From an uncultured virus (IMG/VR IMGVR_UViG_3300017732_000001) (lineage: Duplodnaviria > Heunggongvirae > Uroviricota > Caudoviricetes), in IMG/VR virus record IMGVR_UViG_3300017732_000001: a stretch of DNA of 62,011 nucleotides; one strand, written 5' to 3'. The position numbers and the translations under genes were made by a program. Shown one piece after another: positions 28,075 to 54,325 of this stretch. Below the pieces are notes generated by a model, which worked only from the letters and a program-made list of their open reading frames with translations, was not told where the DNA came from and searched no databases. The first letter of the stretch is position 1. Each line of letters opens with the position of its first letter.

Positions 28075-28084
28075 ATATTTGTAA

Positions 28085-28272
28085 GAGAGGGACGCTTCTT
28101 TTACTGGGAGTGACTGAACAAACTTACTGGCATACTGCTGGTTAAGGTGATGAGACACAGGTGGTGCTGCTGCGAAAGCAGAATCGACTTACCAGTCGGG
28201 TCTCAGGCAAAGATGTATTTACTCTGTAGTAATGCCCATCTTTTGTTGGTACACAGTAATCCAACCTCCCTC
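28085..28272 (+). ncRNA. Large structured RNA, resembling the manA motif known from cyanophages
   Basis: Helices GGGAG/CTCCC, TGAGAC/GTCTCA, CTGC-GAAA-GCAG, CGACT/AGTCG, AAAGATG/CATCTTT and GTTGG/CCAAC; own promoter. The family name is from recall, not a search. Confidence 0.65.
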
Positions 28273-28296
28273 CACACACCACACATAATCAGGTCT

Positions 28297-42542: not shown

Positions 42543-43172
42543 ATGTTTATTGGTGAAGTCCCGACCTCTGTGTCGGAACCCATCAAGGCAAGACTATTGA
42601 ATAGTCCTTATTGGCCTTGGTATATGATTACTGAAACAACTGGGTATGATCCTAAGTTCAATGATTCTATCCCCGATGAAATGTCGGGGGAGGATCCTCA
42701 GTTTCAACACACAGTAGTAAACAATCAAGGAGAGATCTCTTCCCAACACGCTTGGGATATTGTTGTCGAACCTTTGTGGAAACATATATCTGAAAACTTT
42801 TCCGATGAACTTGGAGACTTTGAAAAGTTCAGACGTATCAAAATCAATCTATTAACTAGGAAAGAGTCAAAGCATTTATACCATACACCACACGTGGATT
42901 ATGATTTTCCACATATGACGTTGTTGTATTATGTGAATGACTCGGATGGTCCTACGTTCTTCTTCAATGAAACGTATGATGGATCACGTAAAAAACTGAC
43001 GATGAAAACTAAGATCGAACCACGTCAAGGGAGGTTTGTTATCTTTGACGGTCATAATTTTCACGCGAGCAGTAATCCGCAATACAATGACTATCGATGC
43101 ATAATCAATTTAAATTACATCTCAAGTTCCTCGGGCAACTTAAGCGGGATCTTAAACGAGATAAGGGCATAG
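42543..43172 (+). CDS. 2OG-Fe(II) oxygenase (HxD type)
   Basis: HTPHVD..YYVNDSDGPT..FDGHNFHAS..R.IINLN. Confidence 0.8.
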   Translation: MFIGEVPTSVSEPIKARLLNSPYWPWYMITETTGYDPKFNDSIPDEMSGEDPQFQHTVVNNQGEISSQHAWDIVVEPLWKHISENFSDELGDFEKFRRIKINLLTRKESKHLYHTPHVDYDFPHMTLLYYVNDSDGPTFFFNETYDGSRKKLTMKTKIEPRQGRFVIFDGHNFHASSNPQYNDYRCIINLNYISSSSGNLSGILNEIRA

Positions 43173-43234
43173 GCACGCAGACGCAGTACCGTACCAACAG
43201 GAAGCGTAACAAAAAGAAAAAGATTGCTAAATAA
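43097..43234 (+). CDS. Possible 45-aa highly basic peptide
   Basis: MHNQFKLHLKFLGQLKRDLKR...RKRNKKKKIAK; overlaps the oxygenase 3' end. Confidence 0.4.
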   Translation: MHNQFKLHLKFLGQLKRDLKRDKGIGTQTQYRTNRKRNKKKKIAK

Positions 43235-43259
43235 TACAGGATATGTTATCATATCCATA

Positions 43260-43533
43260 CGTTCATCTCGCAAGAGACGCAAGTAAGTCGCGGAACGGAG
43301 CGTTCATCCCTATGTTTGGACCATTATTATGTTAATGCATCTAATGATTTTAGCGTATTCAGATCTCCATTGTGTCGATGCTGCTGTACTGATAGGTAGA
43401 GTTGCTAAGCACGAACAGTTATCTAGACAGGTAAAGGTTGAGATCGTTCAAACCATTCAGGAATCAACTCCTGAGTGTCCGTGGGACGCAAACGACTAAA
43501 GGAACGGACCTAAAAATCCAACTACTTTAGGAG
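43260..43533 (+). ncRNA. Glutamine-riboswitch-like (glnA / Downstream-peptide class) double aptamer with an enclosed ORF
   Basis: Two CGTTCATC starts (43260, 43301), two GACGCAA junctions and two GGAACG ends (43292, 43501); RBS-sequestering CCTAAA/TTTAGG; lies upstream of YRG peptide genes. Confidence 0.72.
43329..43499 (+). CDS. 56-aa ORF nested in the RNA (MLMHLMILAY...ECPWDAND)
   Basis: Read manually; two Cys; its last codons are aptamer nucleotides. Confidence 0.6.
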   Translation: MLMHLMILAYSDLHCVDAAVLIGRVAKHEQLSRQVKVEIVQTIQESTPECPWDAND

Positions 43534-43540
43534 TAACCAA

Positions 43541-43684
43541 ATGGAACTTATCACGTATAGAGGCGTTAAGTATAACGCCAAAGAGTACAAAGCAAAGGTA
43601 CTTGCCGAAGCATCATCAAACCGCAACCACGATTTGATGTACAGAGGCGTCAAAGTTGAACGCAAGTTCGCATCAAAGAGTTAA
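43541..43684 (+). CDS. DUF4278-like YRG peptide (47 aa)
   Basis: MELITYRGVKY...LMYRGVKV; AGGAG Shine-Dalgarno. Confidence 0.8.
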   Translation: MELITYRGVKYNAKEYKAKVLAEASSNRNHDLMYRGVKVERKFASKS

Positions 43685-43685
43685 G

Positions 43686-43793
43686 ATGGATCTATCATCA
43701 CCGCTAATGGTGGTGGGACTCATAACATTGGGATCTGCCACGTTCCTAACCTTAATCTATGCAGAAGTAAAATTCTTGCACCAGTGGGGTTAG
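43686..43793 (+). CDS. 35-aa single-pass membrane micropeptide
   Basis: MDLSSPLMVVGLITLGSATFLTLIYAEVKFLHQWG. Confidence 0.6.
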   Translation: MDLSSPLMVVGLITLGSATFLTLIYAEVKFLHQWG

Positions 43794-43797
43794 GACC

Positions 43798-43956
43798 GTG
43801 CGACTCAAGATCTCAATAGATTATGGGTTGCCAGAGTATGACGAGAATAAACACAATCCCGAAAAGGTCTTCGCCTTTCTTTGCTATCGGGGAGTGTACT
43901 ATGCCAAATGGTGTAAAATAAACTTGTCATTCAATCAAAACACTTCGGTCAAATAA
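43798..43956 (+). CDS. 52-aa peptide with a YRGV motif (GTG start)
   Basis: ..FAFLCYRGVYYAKW..; ends just before the terminator. Confidence 0.6.
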   Translation: MRLKISIDYGLPEYDENKHNPEKVFAFLCYRGVYYAKWCKINLSFNQNTSVK

Positions 43957-43969
43957 CTTCGTGAAACGC

Positions 43970-43994
43970 ACACCCTTTTCAAGGGTGTTTTTTT
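43970..43994 (+). terminator. Rho-independent terminator
   Basis: ACACCCTT-ttc-AAGGGTGT-T run. Confidence 0.75.
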
Positions 43995-44036
43995 ATGCTA
44001 GGATATATAATATTAATATAATAAGGTACTACCCGA

Positions 44037-44705
44037 ATGAAAATCTTCCTAGATTGTTCGGACCCCGAACTTATCCATCACGCAATGGAAACTTGTCTCA
44101 TTGATGGTGTAACTACTAACCCTTCTCTTATGTTGAAGGCAGGTAGGAAACCTAGAGACGTGATCCAAGAAATCAGTGATCTTTTTTCTTGGGATGCTTC
44201 AATCTCTGCAGAAGTTATGGGCGATACAGCAGAAGAAATGATTGAAGCAGCAAATGAATACTATAGTATTGCCCCCAACGTCACAGTTAAACTTCCCTGT
44301 ACAAGGGAGGGACTGATTGCCTGTAGTGATCTCTCATCCGATGGTATCAGTACAAACGTAACCTTAATTTTCTCAGTCTCACAAGCAATCCTCGCTGCAA
44401 AAGCAGGAGCATCTATGATGTCTCCTTTTGTTGGTAGACTGAATGACAATTCTTTCTCAGGTATATCACTAGTTCAAGCAATCTCTAGAGTCTATCGTAT
44501 GCACGATGTAGATACAGAGATCCTTGCTGCATCTGTACGCGAAGTGCACCAAGTCGCACGTTGTTTTGATGCAGGAGCAGACATTGTGACTATGCCATAT
44601 CAAGTGTTCAATAAAATGTACAACCATATCTTGACAGACAATGGTCTAGAGAGATTTGAGAAAGACTGGGCAGAACTACAGAACCAATTACATATTGACG
44701 AATGA
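44037..44705 (+). CDS. talC: Transaldolase TalC
   Basis: IFLD, GVTTNPSL, VKLP, NVTLIFS, SPFVGRL and AASVR. Confidence 0.95.
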   Translation: MKIFLDCSDPELIHHAMETCLIDGVTTNPSLMLKAGRKPRDVIQEISDLFSWDASISAEVMGDTAEEMIEAANEYYSIAPNVTVKLPCTREGLIACSDLSSDGISTNVTLIFSVSQAILAAKAGASMMSPFVGRLNDNSFSGISLVQAISRVYRMHDVDTEILAASVREVHQVARCFDAGADIVTMPYQVFNKMYNHILTDNGLERFEKDWAELQNQLHIDE

Positions 44706-45763: not shown

Positions 45764-45837
45764 GGTCCAGTAGCTCAGTGGAATAGAGCAACTGCCTTCT
45801 AAGCAGTCGGTCGATGGTTCGAATCCATCCTGGATCG
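45764..45837 (+). tRNA. tRNA-Arg(UCU)
   Basis: GGTCCAG/CTGGATC acceptor stem, ACTGC-CTTCTAA-GCAGT anticodon arm and GGTTCGAATCC; CCA not encoded. Confidence 0.95.
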
Positions 45838-48512: not shown

Positions 48513-48530
48513 CAATTCCTCAACTATTAC

Positions 48531-48641
48531 TGCTCCCCTTAAACCGAGACCTCTAGGGAGAATAAATTACGTCTCTCATACCTGCTGCTGAGGGTGCATC
48601 AGGAATATCTATCAGTGTTTCCCTGCACTATTACCTAACCC
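48531..48641 (+). ncRNA. PhotoRC-II-like structured leader of psbA
   Basis: CTCCC/GGGAG, GAGAC/GTCTC, CCTG/CAGG and AGGG/CCCT pairings directly 5' of psbA. The family name is from recall. Confidence 0.65.
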
Positions 48642-54066: not shown

Positions 54067-54262
54067 TCAATATTACCATTCTTATTTGGAGAATAAACAG
54101 AAAAAGTTCTGTATTGATGGGGTTTATGAGTCCGTAGTCTCCTATGGTTACCATTGTGATGGTAGCGACATAACTGGACACTATGTCTTGACAGATAACT
54201 ACCGTTTAGTGTATGATCGTTCTGGGTTATTTCAATACAAGGAAAAGTGGTCGAGTGGTTGA
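54053..54262 (+). CDS. Hypothetical protein whose 3' end overlaps tRNA-Ser
   Basis: GGAG Shine-Dalgarno; stop codon lies inside the tRNA D-arm. Confidence 0.6.
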   Translation: MLNLDQYYHSYLENKQKKFCIDGVYESVVSYGYHCDGSDITGHYVLTDNYRLVYDRSGLFQYKEKWSSG

Positions 54263-54325
54263 TGGCATTGGTCTTGAAAACCAACGATGTGAAGGCATCC
54301 GTGGGTTCGAATCCCACCTTTTCCG
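54241..54325 (+). tRNA. tRNA-Ser(UGA)
   Basis: GGAAAAG/CTTTTCC acceptor stem, TTGGT-CTTGAAA-ACCAA, long variable arm and GGTTCGAATCCC; no CCA. Confidence 0.93.

What the first reader, a model, noticed from the sequence alone, without database searches (positions are those of the whole stretch)
43239..43994. Interlocked double glutamine-aptamer RNA that encloses a whole ORF and gates YRGV micropeptides
Seen: two sets of aptamer-like parts. These are CGTTCATC (43260, 43301), GACGCAA (43276, 43485) and GGAACG (43292, 43501). In fold A, aptamer 1 is compact (P1 CGTTC/GAACG, P2 TCTC-GCAA-GAGA). Aptamer 2 has its P2 (TCCC 43307-10 / GGGA 43483-86) closed around a loop of about 170 nt that holds most of a 56-codon ORF, whose last codons (W-D-A-N-D-stop) are aptamer nucleotides. 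In fold B, AGTCG (43286-90) pairs with CGACT (43493-97), giving two back-to-back three-way junctions that share one helix, the inner one circularly permuted. Downstream, CCTAAA (43509-14) or CTAAAG (43496-501) can pair over the AGGAG RBS of a DUF4278-like peptide. Established: glnA and Downstream-peptide motifs are glutamine riboswitches of cyanobacteria, often upstream of short YRG-motif proteins, and one controls the glutamine synthetase inactivating factor gifB. Inference: a phage nitrogen-sensing switch in which ribosomes translating the nested ORF unwind the aptamer, so peptide expression integrates glutamine level with translational activity.
Basis: partly seen in the sequence, partly recalled or inferred. 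Interest (0 to 1): 0.85.

Follow-up and report, generated by a model that had tools for sequence, protein, structure and literature searches.

The report
Nested double glutamine riboswitch holding a gene
A cyanophage mRNA leader folds as one glutamine-sensing aptamer nested inside another, with a whole small protein gene in one of its stems, an arrangement conserved in about 200 distinct related phage sequences and not found described in the papers I could search.

Summary
Window 43260-43506 carries two full sets of glutamine-aptamer core motifs. About 200 distinct related cyanophage loci keep the layout.

Three helices covary:
- The long-range helix UCCC(U)AUG/CGUGGGA closes around a conserved 49-69-codon ORF (phrog_504, two invariant Cys).
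- The inter-aptamer helix AGUCG/CGACU covaries too (AGUCA/UGACU, AUUCG/CGAAU; in a second sequence class U-A, A-U and G-C at one pair).
- The anti-Shine-Dalgarno helix CUAAAG/CUUUAG covaries with the ORF's stop codon.

The outer aptamer is a canonical glutamine-I aptamer (P1, P2, E-loop AGUA/RAA, P3). Its P3 encloses a circularly permuted inner aptamer, and the inner P2 encloses the ORF. In natural ORF-less relatives, Rfam's own glutamine model picks this parse at 39.6-43.6 bits (threshold 35). In 36 loci the outer P2 also holds an ORF.

The gene downstream is a double-YRG DUF4278 peptide. The likely function is a glutamine ON switch for it. Not tested: glutamine binding, cooperativity between the aptamers, and coupling of the switch to translation of the nested ORF. 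The CCUAAA hairpin alternative is not conserved. Ames & Breaker 2011 could not be read, so novelty is provisional.

The parts
43227..43233 (+). CTAAATA promoter-like motif. I recall it as resembling the T4-type late promoter TATAAATA.
   Evidence: TAWATA is present in 109 of 121 distinct upstream regions, and 82 of them lie 31-33 nt before the first CGTTC. The control rate is 42 of 605 random 60-nt pieces. The window's copy lies 32 nt before CGTTC. A sigma-70-like match, TTGCTA-17-TATCAT at 43224-43252, overlaps it.
43239..43256 (+). Stem-loop GGATATG-TTAT-CATATCC just 5' of the aptamer, probably the 5'-terminal hairpin of the transcript.
   Evidence: A perfect stem of 6 bp or more within the 32 nt before CGTTC occurs in 96 of 116 distinct loci, against 24 of 116 after shuffling. 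The stem sequences differ between loci.
43260..43264 (+). Outer P1, 5' strand (CGUUC). It pairs with 43502-43506 in fold B, or with 43293-43297 in fold A.
   Evidence: The strand is invariant, so covariation cannot choose the partner.
43266..43277 (+). Outer P2 hairpin UCUC-GCAA-GAGA.
   Evidence: Rfam alignment. The stem sequence varies but stays complementary among loci. In 36 other loci this hairpin is replaced by a long-range helix around a 61-75-codon ORF.
43278..43285 (+). Outer J2/3, CGCAAGUA, including the AGUA half of the E-loop.
   Evidence: Invariant or nearly so in A1. It matches the Rfam consensus CGGAAGUA. The E-loop is described in PMC5393176 and PMC6698751 (passages read).
43286..43290 (+). 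Shared P3, 5' strand (AGUCG).
   Evidence: It pairs with 43493-43497 and covaries.
43293..43305 (+). Inner P1 hairpin GAACG-GAG-CGUUC (fold B). The loop GAG together with the preceding G reads GGAG, 10 nt before the AUG that lies in the P2' helix.
   Evidence: All 115 distinct loci of the second scan have CGTTCA 3-6 nt after GGAACG. The linkers were GAT 36, GGTT 25, GAAT 23 and others.
43307..43314 (+). Inner P2' 5' strand, UCCC-(U)-AUG.
   Evidence: Anchored counts, n=103: position 3 C-G 78, U-A 16, U-G 9; position 4 C-G 64, U-A 19, A-U 14, U-G 5; position 5 paired in 89 of 103. Replicated in 55 new split loci.
43313..43335 (+). 7-codon uORF (MFGPLLC-stop) that starts at the helix AUG. Its UAA overlaps AUG 43335 (UAAUG), which is in frame with the nested ORF.
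   Evidence: The window is the outlier: its ORF start lies 22 nt into the strand, against 3-6 nt in 100 of 103 loci.
43329..43499 (+). Nested ORF, 56 codons as listed. It is a phrog_504 small protein with a hydrophobic N-terminus, two invariant Cys and a helical hairpin. The true start is probably 43335 or 43344.
   Evidence: phrog_504 E 6e-20, aligned from residue 5. An intact ORF is present in 103 of 103 split loci. Diversity by codon position is 0.45/0.21/0.61. C15 and C50 are invariant in 93 sequences. AF2 pLDDT is 82.
43480..43486 (+). Inner P2' 3' strand (CGUGGGA), which is also codons for P-W-D.
43487..43492 (+). Inner J2/3, CGCAAA. It has no AGUA, so the inner aptamer has no E-loop.
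43493..43497 (+). Shared P3, 3' strand (CGACU).
   Evidence: Rfam's model pairs AGU with ACU across 38-46 nt in ORF-less relatives.
43498..43506 (+). Outer J3/1, AAAG (the RAA half of the E-loop; the stop codon UAA is 43497-43499), followed by the outer P1 3' strand GAACG (43502-43506).
   Evidence: The stop codon lies 4 nt before GGAACG in 95 of 103 loci. The bases stay invariant beyond the stop codon.
43496..43530 (+). Alternative OFF helix: CUAAAG (43496-43501) pairs with CUUUAG (43525-43530), reaching into the SD AGGAG (43529-43533).
   Evidence: 90.6% of cells pair. There are 30 cells with A-U changed to G-C, against 0.1 in shuffles. Stop-codon A is always opposite U (42 of 42); C occurs only opposite G (36). 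The helix is present in the MFE and centroid folds.
43541..43684 (+). Regulated gene: a 47-aa DUF4278 peptide with two YRGV motifs.
   Evidence: PF14105 25.8 bits (cut-off 25.3); phrog_5049 8e-22. The downstream ORF carries YRG in 109 of 122 distinct loci; most of the remaining 13 run off the end of the fetched DNA.
43686..43793 (+). 35-codon hydrophobic ORF in the same unit, with no family match.
43798..43956 (+). 52-codon ORF (phrog_6192) containing CYRGVYY.
   Evidence: 7e-22.
43970..43995 (+). Intrinsic-terminator-like hairpin plus a T run, marking the end of the unit.

Best explanation
Window 43260-43506 is a conjoined, nested pair of glutamine-I type aptamers at the 5' end of a short cyanophage operon.

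The outer aptamer is canonical: P1 is CGUUC 43260-64 with GAACG 43502-06, P2 is the hairpin 43266-77, the E-loop is AGUA with AAA, and P3 is AGUCG 43286-90 with CGACU 43493-97. Where a normal aptamer has a P3 loop, this one holds a second, circularly permuted aptamer. In that inner aptamer P1 is the hairpin GAACG-GAG-CGUUC, and P2' is UCCC(U)AUG with CGUGGGA, closed around about 165 nt.

That loop is a real gene. It encodes a phrog_504 small two-cysteine protein. In relatives its start codon lies in the P2' 5' strand. Its last codons and stop codon are the P2' 3' strand, the inner J2/3, the P3 3' strand and the outer J3/1.

Inferred mechanism: without glutamine, CUAAAG (the end of P3 plus J3/1) pairs with CUUUAG at the Shine-Dalgarno sequence of the DUF4278 double-YRG peptide gene, which turns that gene OFF. 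Glutamine closes the outer P1 and E-loop, withdraws CUAAAG and frees the RBS, which turns it ON. This is the mechanism shown for gifB in Synechocystis.

Further inference: folding buries the nested ORF's initiation site. Ribosomes that do translate the ORF must melt the inner aptamer and P3 and stop 4 nt before the outer P1 strand. The two ORFs would therefore be regulated reciprocally or coupled, and the two ligand sites would be structurally linked through the shared P3.
For: Shown by comparison:
- P2' covaries across 103 distinct split loci: 82.9% paired over 7 positions, against 30-58% when the register is shifted. The two core pairs show 16 and 19 double changes. The result repeats in 55 new split loci.
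- P3 covaries. AGUCA is always with UGACU (5 of 5), AUUCG is with CGAAU, and G-U variants occur.
- In the second sequence class P3 is an 8-bp duplex. Its terminal pair is U-A 87, A-U 23, G-C 1, with 3 of 114 unpaired. Those changes break the alternative explanation that each strand forms its own mini-hairpin.
- Fold B as a whole on alignment A1: 89% of cells pair, against 27-49% when slid. There are 43 double-change cells against 10.7 in shuffles, 0 of 500 shuffles as high.
- On 9 natural ORF-less relatives, Rfam's Glutamine model gives above-threshold matches in 3 that span the whole tandem (87-97 nt; 43.6, 40.3 and 39.6 bits; threshold 35). P3 is aligned as AGU/ACU around a 38-46-nt insertion, which is the fold B outer aptamer.
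- AGUA occurs only in the first half and RAA only in the second, so an E-loop can form only in fold B (E-loop definition from PMC5393176).
- The inter-aptamer linker is always 3-6 nt, in 115 of 115 loci.
- Anti-SD helix.
- The ORF is real.
- The same module sits in the outer P2 in 36 loci.
- The downstream gene is a YRG/DUF4278 peptide.
- The ON-switch logic comes from PMC6212724 (passages read).
- Model energies: fold B -72.0, fold A -69.6, MFE -78.4 kcal/mol.
Against: - No match in the window itself reaches Rfam's gathering score (24.9 of 35 and 24.7 of 33).
- The P1 strands are invariant, so covariation cannot decide between the outer/inner (fold B) and side-by-side (fold A) P1 pairings.
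- In 2 of the 9 ORF-less loci, both of the second sequence class, Rfam prefers a stand-alone second aptamer with a 2-3-bp mini-P3 (40.3 and 36.8 bits).
- The inner aptamer lacks the E-loop, and its J3/1 is only CG.
- The second-class P3 duplex keeps two C-A mismatches.
- Positions 6-7 of P2', the U and G of the AUG, pair in only about half of loci, so burial of the start codon is partial.
- In the window the helix AUG opens only a uORF.
- In the window a second weak hairpin, CCUAAA/UUUAGG, could still mask the SD in the ON fold.
- Fold B lies 6.4 kcal/mol above the MFE in a model without tertiary or ligand terms.
- Related sequences are not independent, so the shuffle controls overstate significance.
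- Glutamine binding was not measured.
Confidence: 0.65

Rival explanations
1. Two independent side-by-side glutamine aptamers (fold A), acting as the pseudo-cooperative tandem described in the literature. AGUCG/CGACU would be only a facultative or ligand-free contact.
For: The MFE fold forms the compact first aptamer, CGUUC 43260-64 with GAACG 43293-97. Rfam aligns 43258-43301 as a single aptamer at 24.9 bits. For two ORF-less loci of the second sequence class it calls the second aptamer alone, at 40.3 and 36.8 bits. Sherlock et al. 2022 list 157 glutamine doublets as pseudo-cooperative (PMC9481103, passages read).
Against: The inter-aptamer helix covaries, and those changes break the mini-hairpins that stand-alone aptamers would need. 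In fold A the AGUA and RAA halves of the E-loop fall in different aptamers. The linker is only 3-6 nt, which leaves no room for an expression platform. The spanning parse scores 39.6-43.6 bits, against 25-34 for the single aptamers in the same loci. Fold A is 2.4 kcal/mol worse than fold B.
Confidence: 0.15
2. The nested fold is real, but the ORF is only a passenger. The P2 loops tolerate insertions, and a small phage gene has settled there without any regulatory link to the aptamer.
For: ORF-less and ORF-bearing variants coexist: 18 compact against 103 split loci, 39 against 75, and RNA-library contigs join across the ORF (table 5). The U and G of the AUG pair in only about half of loci. The window has moved its start codon out of the helix.
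Against: The start codon lies 3-6 nt into the P2' strand in 100 of 103 loci, and the stop codon lies exactly 4 nt before GGAACG in 95 of 103. The same protein family sits at the same position in the other aptamer's P2 in 36 loci. A neutral insertion would not keep its ends fixed like this.
Confidence: 0.25
3. The 3' half (GGGACGCAAACGACUAA) is conserved because it encodes the protein's C-terminus W-D-A-N-D, not because it is RNA structure. On this view the second aptamer is a broken relic.
For: The motif lies inside the ORF, and D53 and A54 are nearly invariant in the protein alignment.
Against: Third codon positions are frozen there: diversity is 0.12 in codons 47-53, against 0.61 in the body of the ORF. 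Invariance continues past the stop codon through GGAACG. The segment covaries with partners 170-200 nt upstream. In 8 of 103 loci the stop codon lies elsewhere (7 earlier, 1 later), yet the RNA motifs stay. The same bases occur in ORF-less loci.
Confidence: 0.02

Closest known systems
Glutamine-I riboswitch (glnA RNA motif, Rfam RF01739; structures 5DDO/5DDP are recalled, Ren et al. 2015 was not read)
   Same: The core motifs CGUUCA, GACG(G/C)AAGUA and GAAGGAACG. The P1-P2-P3 three-way junction with an E-loop. The association with DUF4278/IF17-like genes. Anti-RBS pairing released by ligand, making an ON switch (PMC6212724).
   Different: P3 is not a hairpin. It is a long-range helix that encloses a second, permuted aptamer. 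P2 of the inner aptamer, and in 36 loci of the outer one too, encloses a whole translated ORF. J2/3 reads CGCAA. The window's own score is below Rfam's threshold.
Tandem glutamine riboswitches, described as pseudo-cooperative (Weinberg 2010, PMC2864571; Sherlock 2022, PMC9481103)
   Same: Two glutamine aptamer sets in series upstream of one gene. The compact phage variants seen here are presumably among the counted doublets.
   Different: The literature treats them as independent riboswitches. Here a covarying helix joins them, there is one expression platform, and the linker is 3-6 nt. The methods of Sherlock et al. excluded pairs with an intervening ORF and discarded overlapping coordinates, so this form would have been filtered out.
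Tandem glycine riboswitch (two aptamers, one expression platform, inter-aptamer contacts)
   Same: Two homologous aptamers for one amino acid, physically coupled, ahead of one platform.
   Different: The glycine aptamers lie side by side and touch through tertiary contacts. Here one aptamer is topologically inside a helix of the other, and one is circularly permuted.
ORFs carried in peripheral loops of structured RNAs (homing-endonuclease genes in group I intron loops), and leader-peptide attenuators in which translation remodels a regulatory fold. Both are recalled general knowledge.
   Same: A coding sequence lies inside a loop of a functional RNA fold, and translation must compete with the fold.
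   Different: The host RNA here is a metabolite-sensing aptamer. The ORF is a conserved 49-69-aa protein rather than a short leader. Its start and stop codons are built into aptamer helices.
Glutamine-II riboswitch (Downstream-peptide motif, RF01704)
   Same: The same ligand-site nucleotides, the same YRG/DUF4278 downstream peptides, and no E-loop, like the inner aptamer.
   Different: In type II the GGAACG strand lies in a hairpin loop and forms a pseudoknot. The element here is fully nested, and its match is sub-threshold (24.7 of 33).

Membership tests
Glutamine-I riboswitch (RF01739) | Covariance-model score at or above the gathering threshold (35 bits) | tested here: not met
   The window scores 24.9 bits at 43258-43301 and 15.9 bits at 43443-43510. 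The 9 named phage loci score 25.0-31.2 bits. The 165-nt ORF inside P2' and the roughly 200-nt P3 insertion cannot be spanned by the model.
Glutamine-I riboswitch (RF01739) | The same test on homologous natural variants that lack the ORF | tested here: met
   5 of 9 compact loci reach threshold. L021 (43.6), L060 (40.3) and L041 (39.6) match as an 87-97-nt parse spanning both aptamers. L024 (40.3) and L087 (36.8) match as the second aptamer alone.
Glutamine-I riboswitch (RF01739) | P1 CGUUC/GAACG and the conserved junction nucleotides CGUUCA, GACG(G/C)AA and GGAACG | tested here: met
   Two complete sets are present. They are invariant across A1, so there is no covariation to test.
Glutamine-I riboswitch (RF01739) | P2 helix directly after CGUUCA, supported by covariation | tested here: met
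   The outer P2 hairpin varies but stays complementary. The inner P2' covaries at positions 3-5.
Glutamine-I riboswitch (RF01739) | E-loop (AGUA opposite GAA) beneath P3, and a P3 helix | tested here: met
   This holds for the outer aptamer in fold B only: AAGUA-AGUCG with CGACU-AAAG, and P3 covaries. The inner aptamer has no E-loop, so the feature is not met there.
Glutamine-I riboswitch (RF01739) | Selective binding of L-glutamine | not testable with these tools
   Needs in-line probing, ITC or a reporter.
Glutamine-I riboswitch (RF01739) | Lies in the 5' UTR of a DUF4278/IF17-like gene, with RBS-masking pairing to the aptamer's 3' side | tested here: met
   PF14105 25.8 bits against a cut-off of 25.3. 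YRG in 109 of 122 downstream ORFs. The anti-SD helix covaries.
Glutamine-II riboswitch (RF01704) | Score of 33 bits or more, and a pseudoknot topology with GGAACG in a hairpin loop | tested here: not met
   24.7 bits. The supported fold is nested and has no pseudoknot.
Pseudo-cooperative tandem riboswitches | Two complete, independently folding riboswitches, each with its own expression platform | tested here: not met
   The linker is 3-6 nt in 115 of 115 loci. A covarying inter-aptamer helix is shared. There is a single anti-SD platform.
DUF4278 (PF14105) | Pfam gathering score | tested here: met
   Window 43541-43681: 25.8 bits against a cut-off of 25.3, E 1.4e-5. The pass is marginal.

The most novel reading that the evidence does not exclude
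One RNA fold of about 250 nt (up to about 500 nt in relatives) acts as a two-ligand, translation-aware logic device. Two glutamine sites are mechanically coupled through a shared helix and bind cooperatively. The folded, glutamine-bound state turns the DUF4278 glutamine-synthetase-inhibitor-like peptide ON and shuts off initiation of the gene buried in its own P2 stem. Each ribosome that does traverse the nested gene erases and resets the sensor and couples into the downstream gene. The phage would then read nitrogen status and translational capacity together. It would be the first riboswitch aptamer with a protein gene as part of its architecture, and the first aptamer-within-aptamer topology.
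Probability: 0.3. Interest if true: 0.92.

Novelty: new variant of a known kind. Interest (0 to 1): 0.8.

Why it matters
Riboswitch aptamers are usually treated as compact, contiguous, non-coding domains, and tandem glutamine riboswitches as independent units. This element departs from both views in three ways:
- One aptamer sits inside a helix of another of the same class.
- One aptamer is circularly permuted.
- A stem closes over a complete, conserved protein gene whose start and stop codons are aptamer nucleotides.

If this holds, several consequences follow:
- Standard covariance-model annotation misses most of these elements. All 9 named phage loci and the window score below threshold.
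- The published tandem census excluded them by design, because it dropped pairs with an intervening ORF.
- Ligand sensing and translation of the embedded gene must interfere physically. That gives a simple natural system for studying competition between ribosomes and a riboswitch, and possible cooperativity between the two sites.
- Marine T4-like cyanophages carry a widespread glutamine-responsive module (429 phage records match the region). It controls IF17-like peptides and an unknown two-cysteine protein family (443 homologs, none named), which bears on how phages read or manipulate host nitrogen status.

Tried and rejected
- CCUAAA (43509-14) / UUUAGG hairpin as the conserved RBS mask: rejected. 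65.9% of cells pair and covariation is not above shuffles. It exists in the window's subfamily only.
- The third CGTTC at 43445, as a compact second aptamer (Rfam 15.9 bits, E 2.4): rejected. It is absent from all 9 related phage loci.
- Sigma-70-type promoter TTGCTA-17-TATCAT: set aside in favour of the position-conserved TAWATA motif. Neither was tested.
- One search used a P2 constraint that was one base out of register. Its energies are superseded.
- Cellular distribution: left unresolved.
  - A pattern scan of 401 genomes of the phylum of one 'cyanobacterium' MAG gave 2 matches, against 6 for the reversed control. Both were unrelated GC-rich DNA.
  - Whether hosts carry the nested form is therefore unknown.
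I could not test whether every phrog_504 gene sits in an aptamer.
- The fold of the nested protein had no PDB match at E<=0.001. It is a generic helical hairpin, and its function remains unknown.
- RNA evidence: contigs of RNA libraries from 2 studies hold the stretch, and one 931-nt contig covers 43281-44211 without differences. Contigs cannot show transcript ends, strand or expression level, and DNA carry-over is possible.
- Ames & Breaker 2011 (RNA Biol 8:82) is not held. Ren et al. 2015 was not read.
- The weak RT-8 (23.8 of 87 bits) and freshwater-2 (19.8 of 49.9 bits) matches were treated as chance.
Full report
CONTEXT. The window is from a T4-like cyanomyovirus. It carries a manA RNA (28082-28275, 180 bits), a PhotoRC-II RNA and two tRNAs. 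NrdB, a 2OG-Fe(II) oxygenase and transaldolase flank the region. The record is a 181,945-bp virus genome. The stretch 43100-44100 has similar DNA in 429 phage records, all Synechococcus or Prochlorococcus phages or records labelled marine. In nine named phages the locus is syntenic. The order is nrdB or oxygenase, a small ORF annotated 'T4-like GC 430', a DUF4278 gene ('GC 660'), and then talC.

OBSERVATION. The composite GACGCAA-N5-12-GGAACG occurs twice in the 62 kb window, against none in 100 shuffles. Rfam gives no match at gathering score. With permissive filters, 43258-43301 matches Glutamine (RF01739) at 24.9 bits (threshold 35) and Glutamine-II at 24.7 bits (threshold 33). Seven of the nine phage loci give the same sub-threshold call at the homologous place.

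COMPARATIVE DATA. Two scans supplied the comparison set.
  - With the phage loci and the window this gave 103 distinct 'split' loci, in which the second GGAACG lies more than 90 nt after the first.
  - It also gave 18 distinct 'compact' loci, in which the second aptamer has an ordinary small P2 hairpin.
- A second scan, anchored on a different segment (the first half of the second sequence class), gave 115 distinct loci.
  - 88 of them were not in the first set.
  - 75 were split, 39 compact, and one had no partner.

THE HELIX AROUND THE ORF (P2').
- Anchored on CGUUCA and on the C of CGCAA, pairs 1-5 are complementary in 103, 102, 103, 102 and 89 of 103 loci. Pair types change as follows:

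| Position | C-G | U-A | A-U | U-G |
|---|---|---|---|---|
| 3 | 78 | 16 | - | 9 |
| 4 | 64 | 19 | 14 | 5 |
| 5 | 2 | 16 | 68 | 3 |

- Over seven positions 82.9% pair, against 30-58% when the register is shifted.
- The 55 new split loci repeat this.
- The window's version is UCCC/GGGA, then a bulged U43311, then AUG/CGU.

THE INTER-APTAMER HELIX (P3).
- In the window's sequence class, AGUCG pairs with CGACU.
  - All five loci with AGUCA have UGACU. P-RSM4 has AUUCG with CGAAU.
  - Four loci have G-U at the first pair and one has U-G.
- In the second class both halves read AGCCGACU. That could mean either two private mini-hairpins or one 8-bp duplex with two C-A mismatches. The variants decide for the duplex.
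  - AGCCGACA in the first half goes with UGCCGACU in the second. AGCCGACG goes with CGCCGACU.
  - The terminal pair is U-A 87, A-U 23, G-C 1, with 3 of 114 unpaired. These changes destroy both mini-hairpins and keep the duplex.
- On the MAFFT alignment A1, the fold B structure pairs 89% of cells, against 27-49% when slid. It has 43 double-change cells against 10.7 in shuffles, with 0 of 500 shuffles as high.
- The sequences are related, so these controls are generous. The number of distinct compensatory types argues against inheritance alone.

WHICH FOLD. The P1 strands never vary, so covariation cannot say whether CGUUC(1) pairs with GAACG(1) (fold A) or with GAACG(2) (fold B). Four observations favour fold B.
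1. The glutamine-I E-loop needs AGUA opposite GAA beneath P3 (PMC5393176 and PMC6698751, passages read). Here AGUA occurs only after the first GACGCA and RAA only before the second GGAACG. Only fold B brings them together, as GUA-AG...CU-GAAG. This is the same flank as in the crystallised construct quoted in PMC5393176.
2. In fold A the P3 strand of aptamer 1 would run with the wrong polarity relative to its junction, with only one nucleotide before P1.
3. The spacer between GGAACG(1) and CGUUCA(2) is 3-6 nt in 115 of 115 loci, as expected for a hairpin loop.
4. On nine natural ORF-less loci, Rfam's own model returns matches of 87-97 nt in three (43.6, 40.3 and 39.6 bits, above the threshold of 35). 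Each spans both aptamers and aligns P3 as AGU/ACU around a 38-46-nt insertion. The single-aptamer parses in those loci score 25-34 bits.

Against fold B, two loci of the second class are best called as a stand-alone second aptamer (40.3 and 36.8 bits). Nearest-neighbour energies for the window are fold B -72.0, fold A -69.6 and MFE -78.4 kcal/mol (which corrects).

THE NESTED ORF IS A GENE.
- All 103 split loci have an intact ORF of 49-69 codons. It starts 3-6 nt into the P2' 5' strand in 100 of them. Its stop codon lies exactly 4 nt before the second GGAACG in 95.
- Diversity by codon position is 0.45/0.21/0.61 in the body of the ORF. It collapses to 0.10/0.09/0.12 in the last seven codons, which are RNA-constrained.
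- The protein matches phrog_504 (6e-20). It has two invariant cysteines at 28% mean column identity. It has 443 unnamed marine or cyanophage homologs.
- It is predicted to be a hydrophobic N-terminus followed by a helical hairpin (pLDDT 82), with no informative PDB match.
- The window is atypical. One extra base and about 30 extra nt leave the helix AUG (43313) opening a 7-codon uORF. Its UAA overlaps AUG 43335, which is in frame with the main ORF. The phrog profile aligns from residue 5.

A RECURRENT MODULE. In 38 of 130 loci the first CGUUC is missing from its usual place.
- In 37 of them a CGUUCAUC lies further upstream; the 38th is truncated. It lies about 200-250 nt upstream in 36 of them, and 67 nt upstream in one (L036).
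- The bases after it pair with those before the first GACGCAA, for example UCUUAUG/CAUAAGA and UCUCAUG/CAUGAGA.
- In the 36 distant cases a 61-75-codon ORF of the same kind lies between (hydrophobic N-terminus, two Cys; 'GC 429'). The exception, L036, has only a 53-nt hairpin there and no ORF.
- So either P2 can hold a gene. Some phages nest two genes in one fold whose outer P1 spans about 450 nt.

EXPRESSION PLATFORM AND REGULATED GENE.
- CUAAAG (the last two P3 bases, the stop codon and J3/1) is complementary to CUUUAG, which abuts the SD AGGAG.
  - Across loci the stop codon's middle base and its partner change together: A-U 42, G-C 36, G-U 34, and never A-C.
  - On A1, 90.6% of cells pair, with 30 double-change cells against 0.1 in shuffles.
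- The helix is in the MFE and centroid folds. The ligand-free default therefore masks the RBS, as proposed for gifB, where glutamine turns translation ON (PMC6212724, passages read).
- The gene downstream is a 47-aa protein with two YRGV motifs. It passes DUF4278 marginally (25.8 against 25.3 bits). YRG is present in 109 of 122 distinct downstream ORFs, and most of the rest are truncated by the locus end.
- The unit continues through a 35-codon hydrophobic ORF and a phrog_6192 ORF to a terminator at 43970-43995.

WHAT IS INFERRED.
- Not measured: glutamine binding by either site, coupling between the sites, repression of the nested ORF by folding, and ribosome-driven resetting or coupling.
- My preferred model:
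  - Glutamine closes the outer aptamer and turns DUF4278 ON.
  - The folded state hinders initiation at the embedded start.
  - Ribosomes that traverse the ORF melt the inner aptamer and P3 and end beside the outer P1 strand.
- I give it about 0.65 for the ON switch on a nested double aptamer, and about 0.3 for the full reciprocal, translation-integrating version.

NOVELTY.
- The papers I could search mention tandem glnA RNAs (PMC2864571, passages read). They class 157 doublets and 4 triplets as pseudo-cooperative, meaning independent (PMC9481103, passages read).
- The methods of that census required that there be no intervening ORF and discarded overlapping hits.
- Searches for 'glutamine riboswitch' with cyanophage, tandem, permut, and E-loop/linchpin, and for 'glnA RNA' with tandem and Downstream-peptide, found no description of a shared P3, a permuted inner aptamer or an embedded ORF.
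- A phage paper reports a 99-nt glnA hit at 44 bits (PMC9964418, Table 4). That looks like the spanning parse, but the paper does not interpret it.
- The original biochemical paper (Ames & Breaker 2011) and Ren et al. 2015 were not available to me, nor were bioRxiv supplements. The claim of novelty is therefore provisional.

Noticed in passing
window 43227-43256: A position-conserved TAWATA motif (CTAAATA here, 32 nt before CGTTC) is followed by a 6-8-bp hairpin that abuts the aptamer. The hairpin's stem sequence differs between phages. This looks like a T4-late-type promoter plus a 5'-terminal protective stem-loop. It would place the riboswitch operon in a particular temporal class of phage genes.
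   Followed up: partly
window 43313-43337: In this phage only, the helix-embedded AUG opens a 7-codon uORF (MFGPLLC). Its stop overlaps the next AUG (UAAUG), which is in frame with the nested gene. This is a termination-reinitiation signature that may preserve the coupling after an insertion of about 30 nt.
   Followed up: partly
L006 405-611 and 35 other loci: The outer aptamer's P2 can also hold a 61-75-codon two-cysteine ORF ('T4-like GC 429'). One fold then nests two genes. L015's upstream ORF resembles L071's downstream one, so the ORF-in-P2 module seems to have been duplicated or swapped.
   Followed up: partly
second-class loci, e.g. L017, L024, L254-L373: The 8-bp shared P3 of the AGCCGACU class keeps two symmetric C-A/A-C mismatches: 112 of 114 at position 3 and 84 of 114 at position 6. 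Some variants resolve them to U-A or C-G. They could be a protonated wobble or a specific tertiary site.
   Followed up: no
L001, L014, L047, L052, L055, L056, L064, L075, L094, L120, L129, just 3' of the second GGAACG: About 10% of loci carry an extra conserved insert (ACGGAUC-ACCC-loop-GGGU-UAAAGG) between the aptamer and the RBS. It may be a different or additional expression platform.
   Followed up: no
proteins P0116 (114 aa, PF14105) and P0120 (106 aa): These metagenome proteins match the nested-ORF profile and are twice its length. One carries DUF4278. They could be read-through fusions of the nested ORF with the YRG peptide, or gene-calling artefacts.
   Followed up: no
window 43798-43956: A third small ORF in the unit (phrog_6192) contains CYRGVYY. 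This resembles the C-terminal FCYRG of the 54-56-aa 'MNTL...' YRG proteins that replace DUF4278 directly after the riboswitch in many relatives.
   Followed up: no
tables 5 and 7 (window 43276-43310 and 43482-43515): Contigs of marine RNA libraries break or switch partner exactly at the two invariant aptamer halves. Some join them across 1-9 nt instead of the ORF. ORF-bearing and ORF-less variants therefore co-occur in the same communities, and the invariant halves act as assembly breakpoints.
   Followed up: no
window 28082-28275, 48521-48616, 45764-45837, 54241-54325: manA RNA (180 bits), PhotoRC-II RNA (72 bits) and two tRNA genes. These are ordinary cyanomyovirus features.
   Followed up: no
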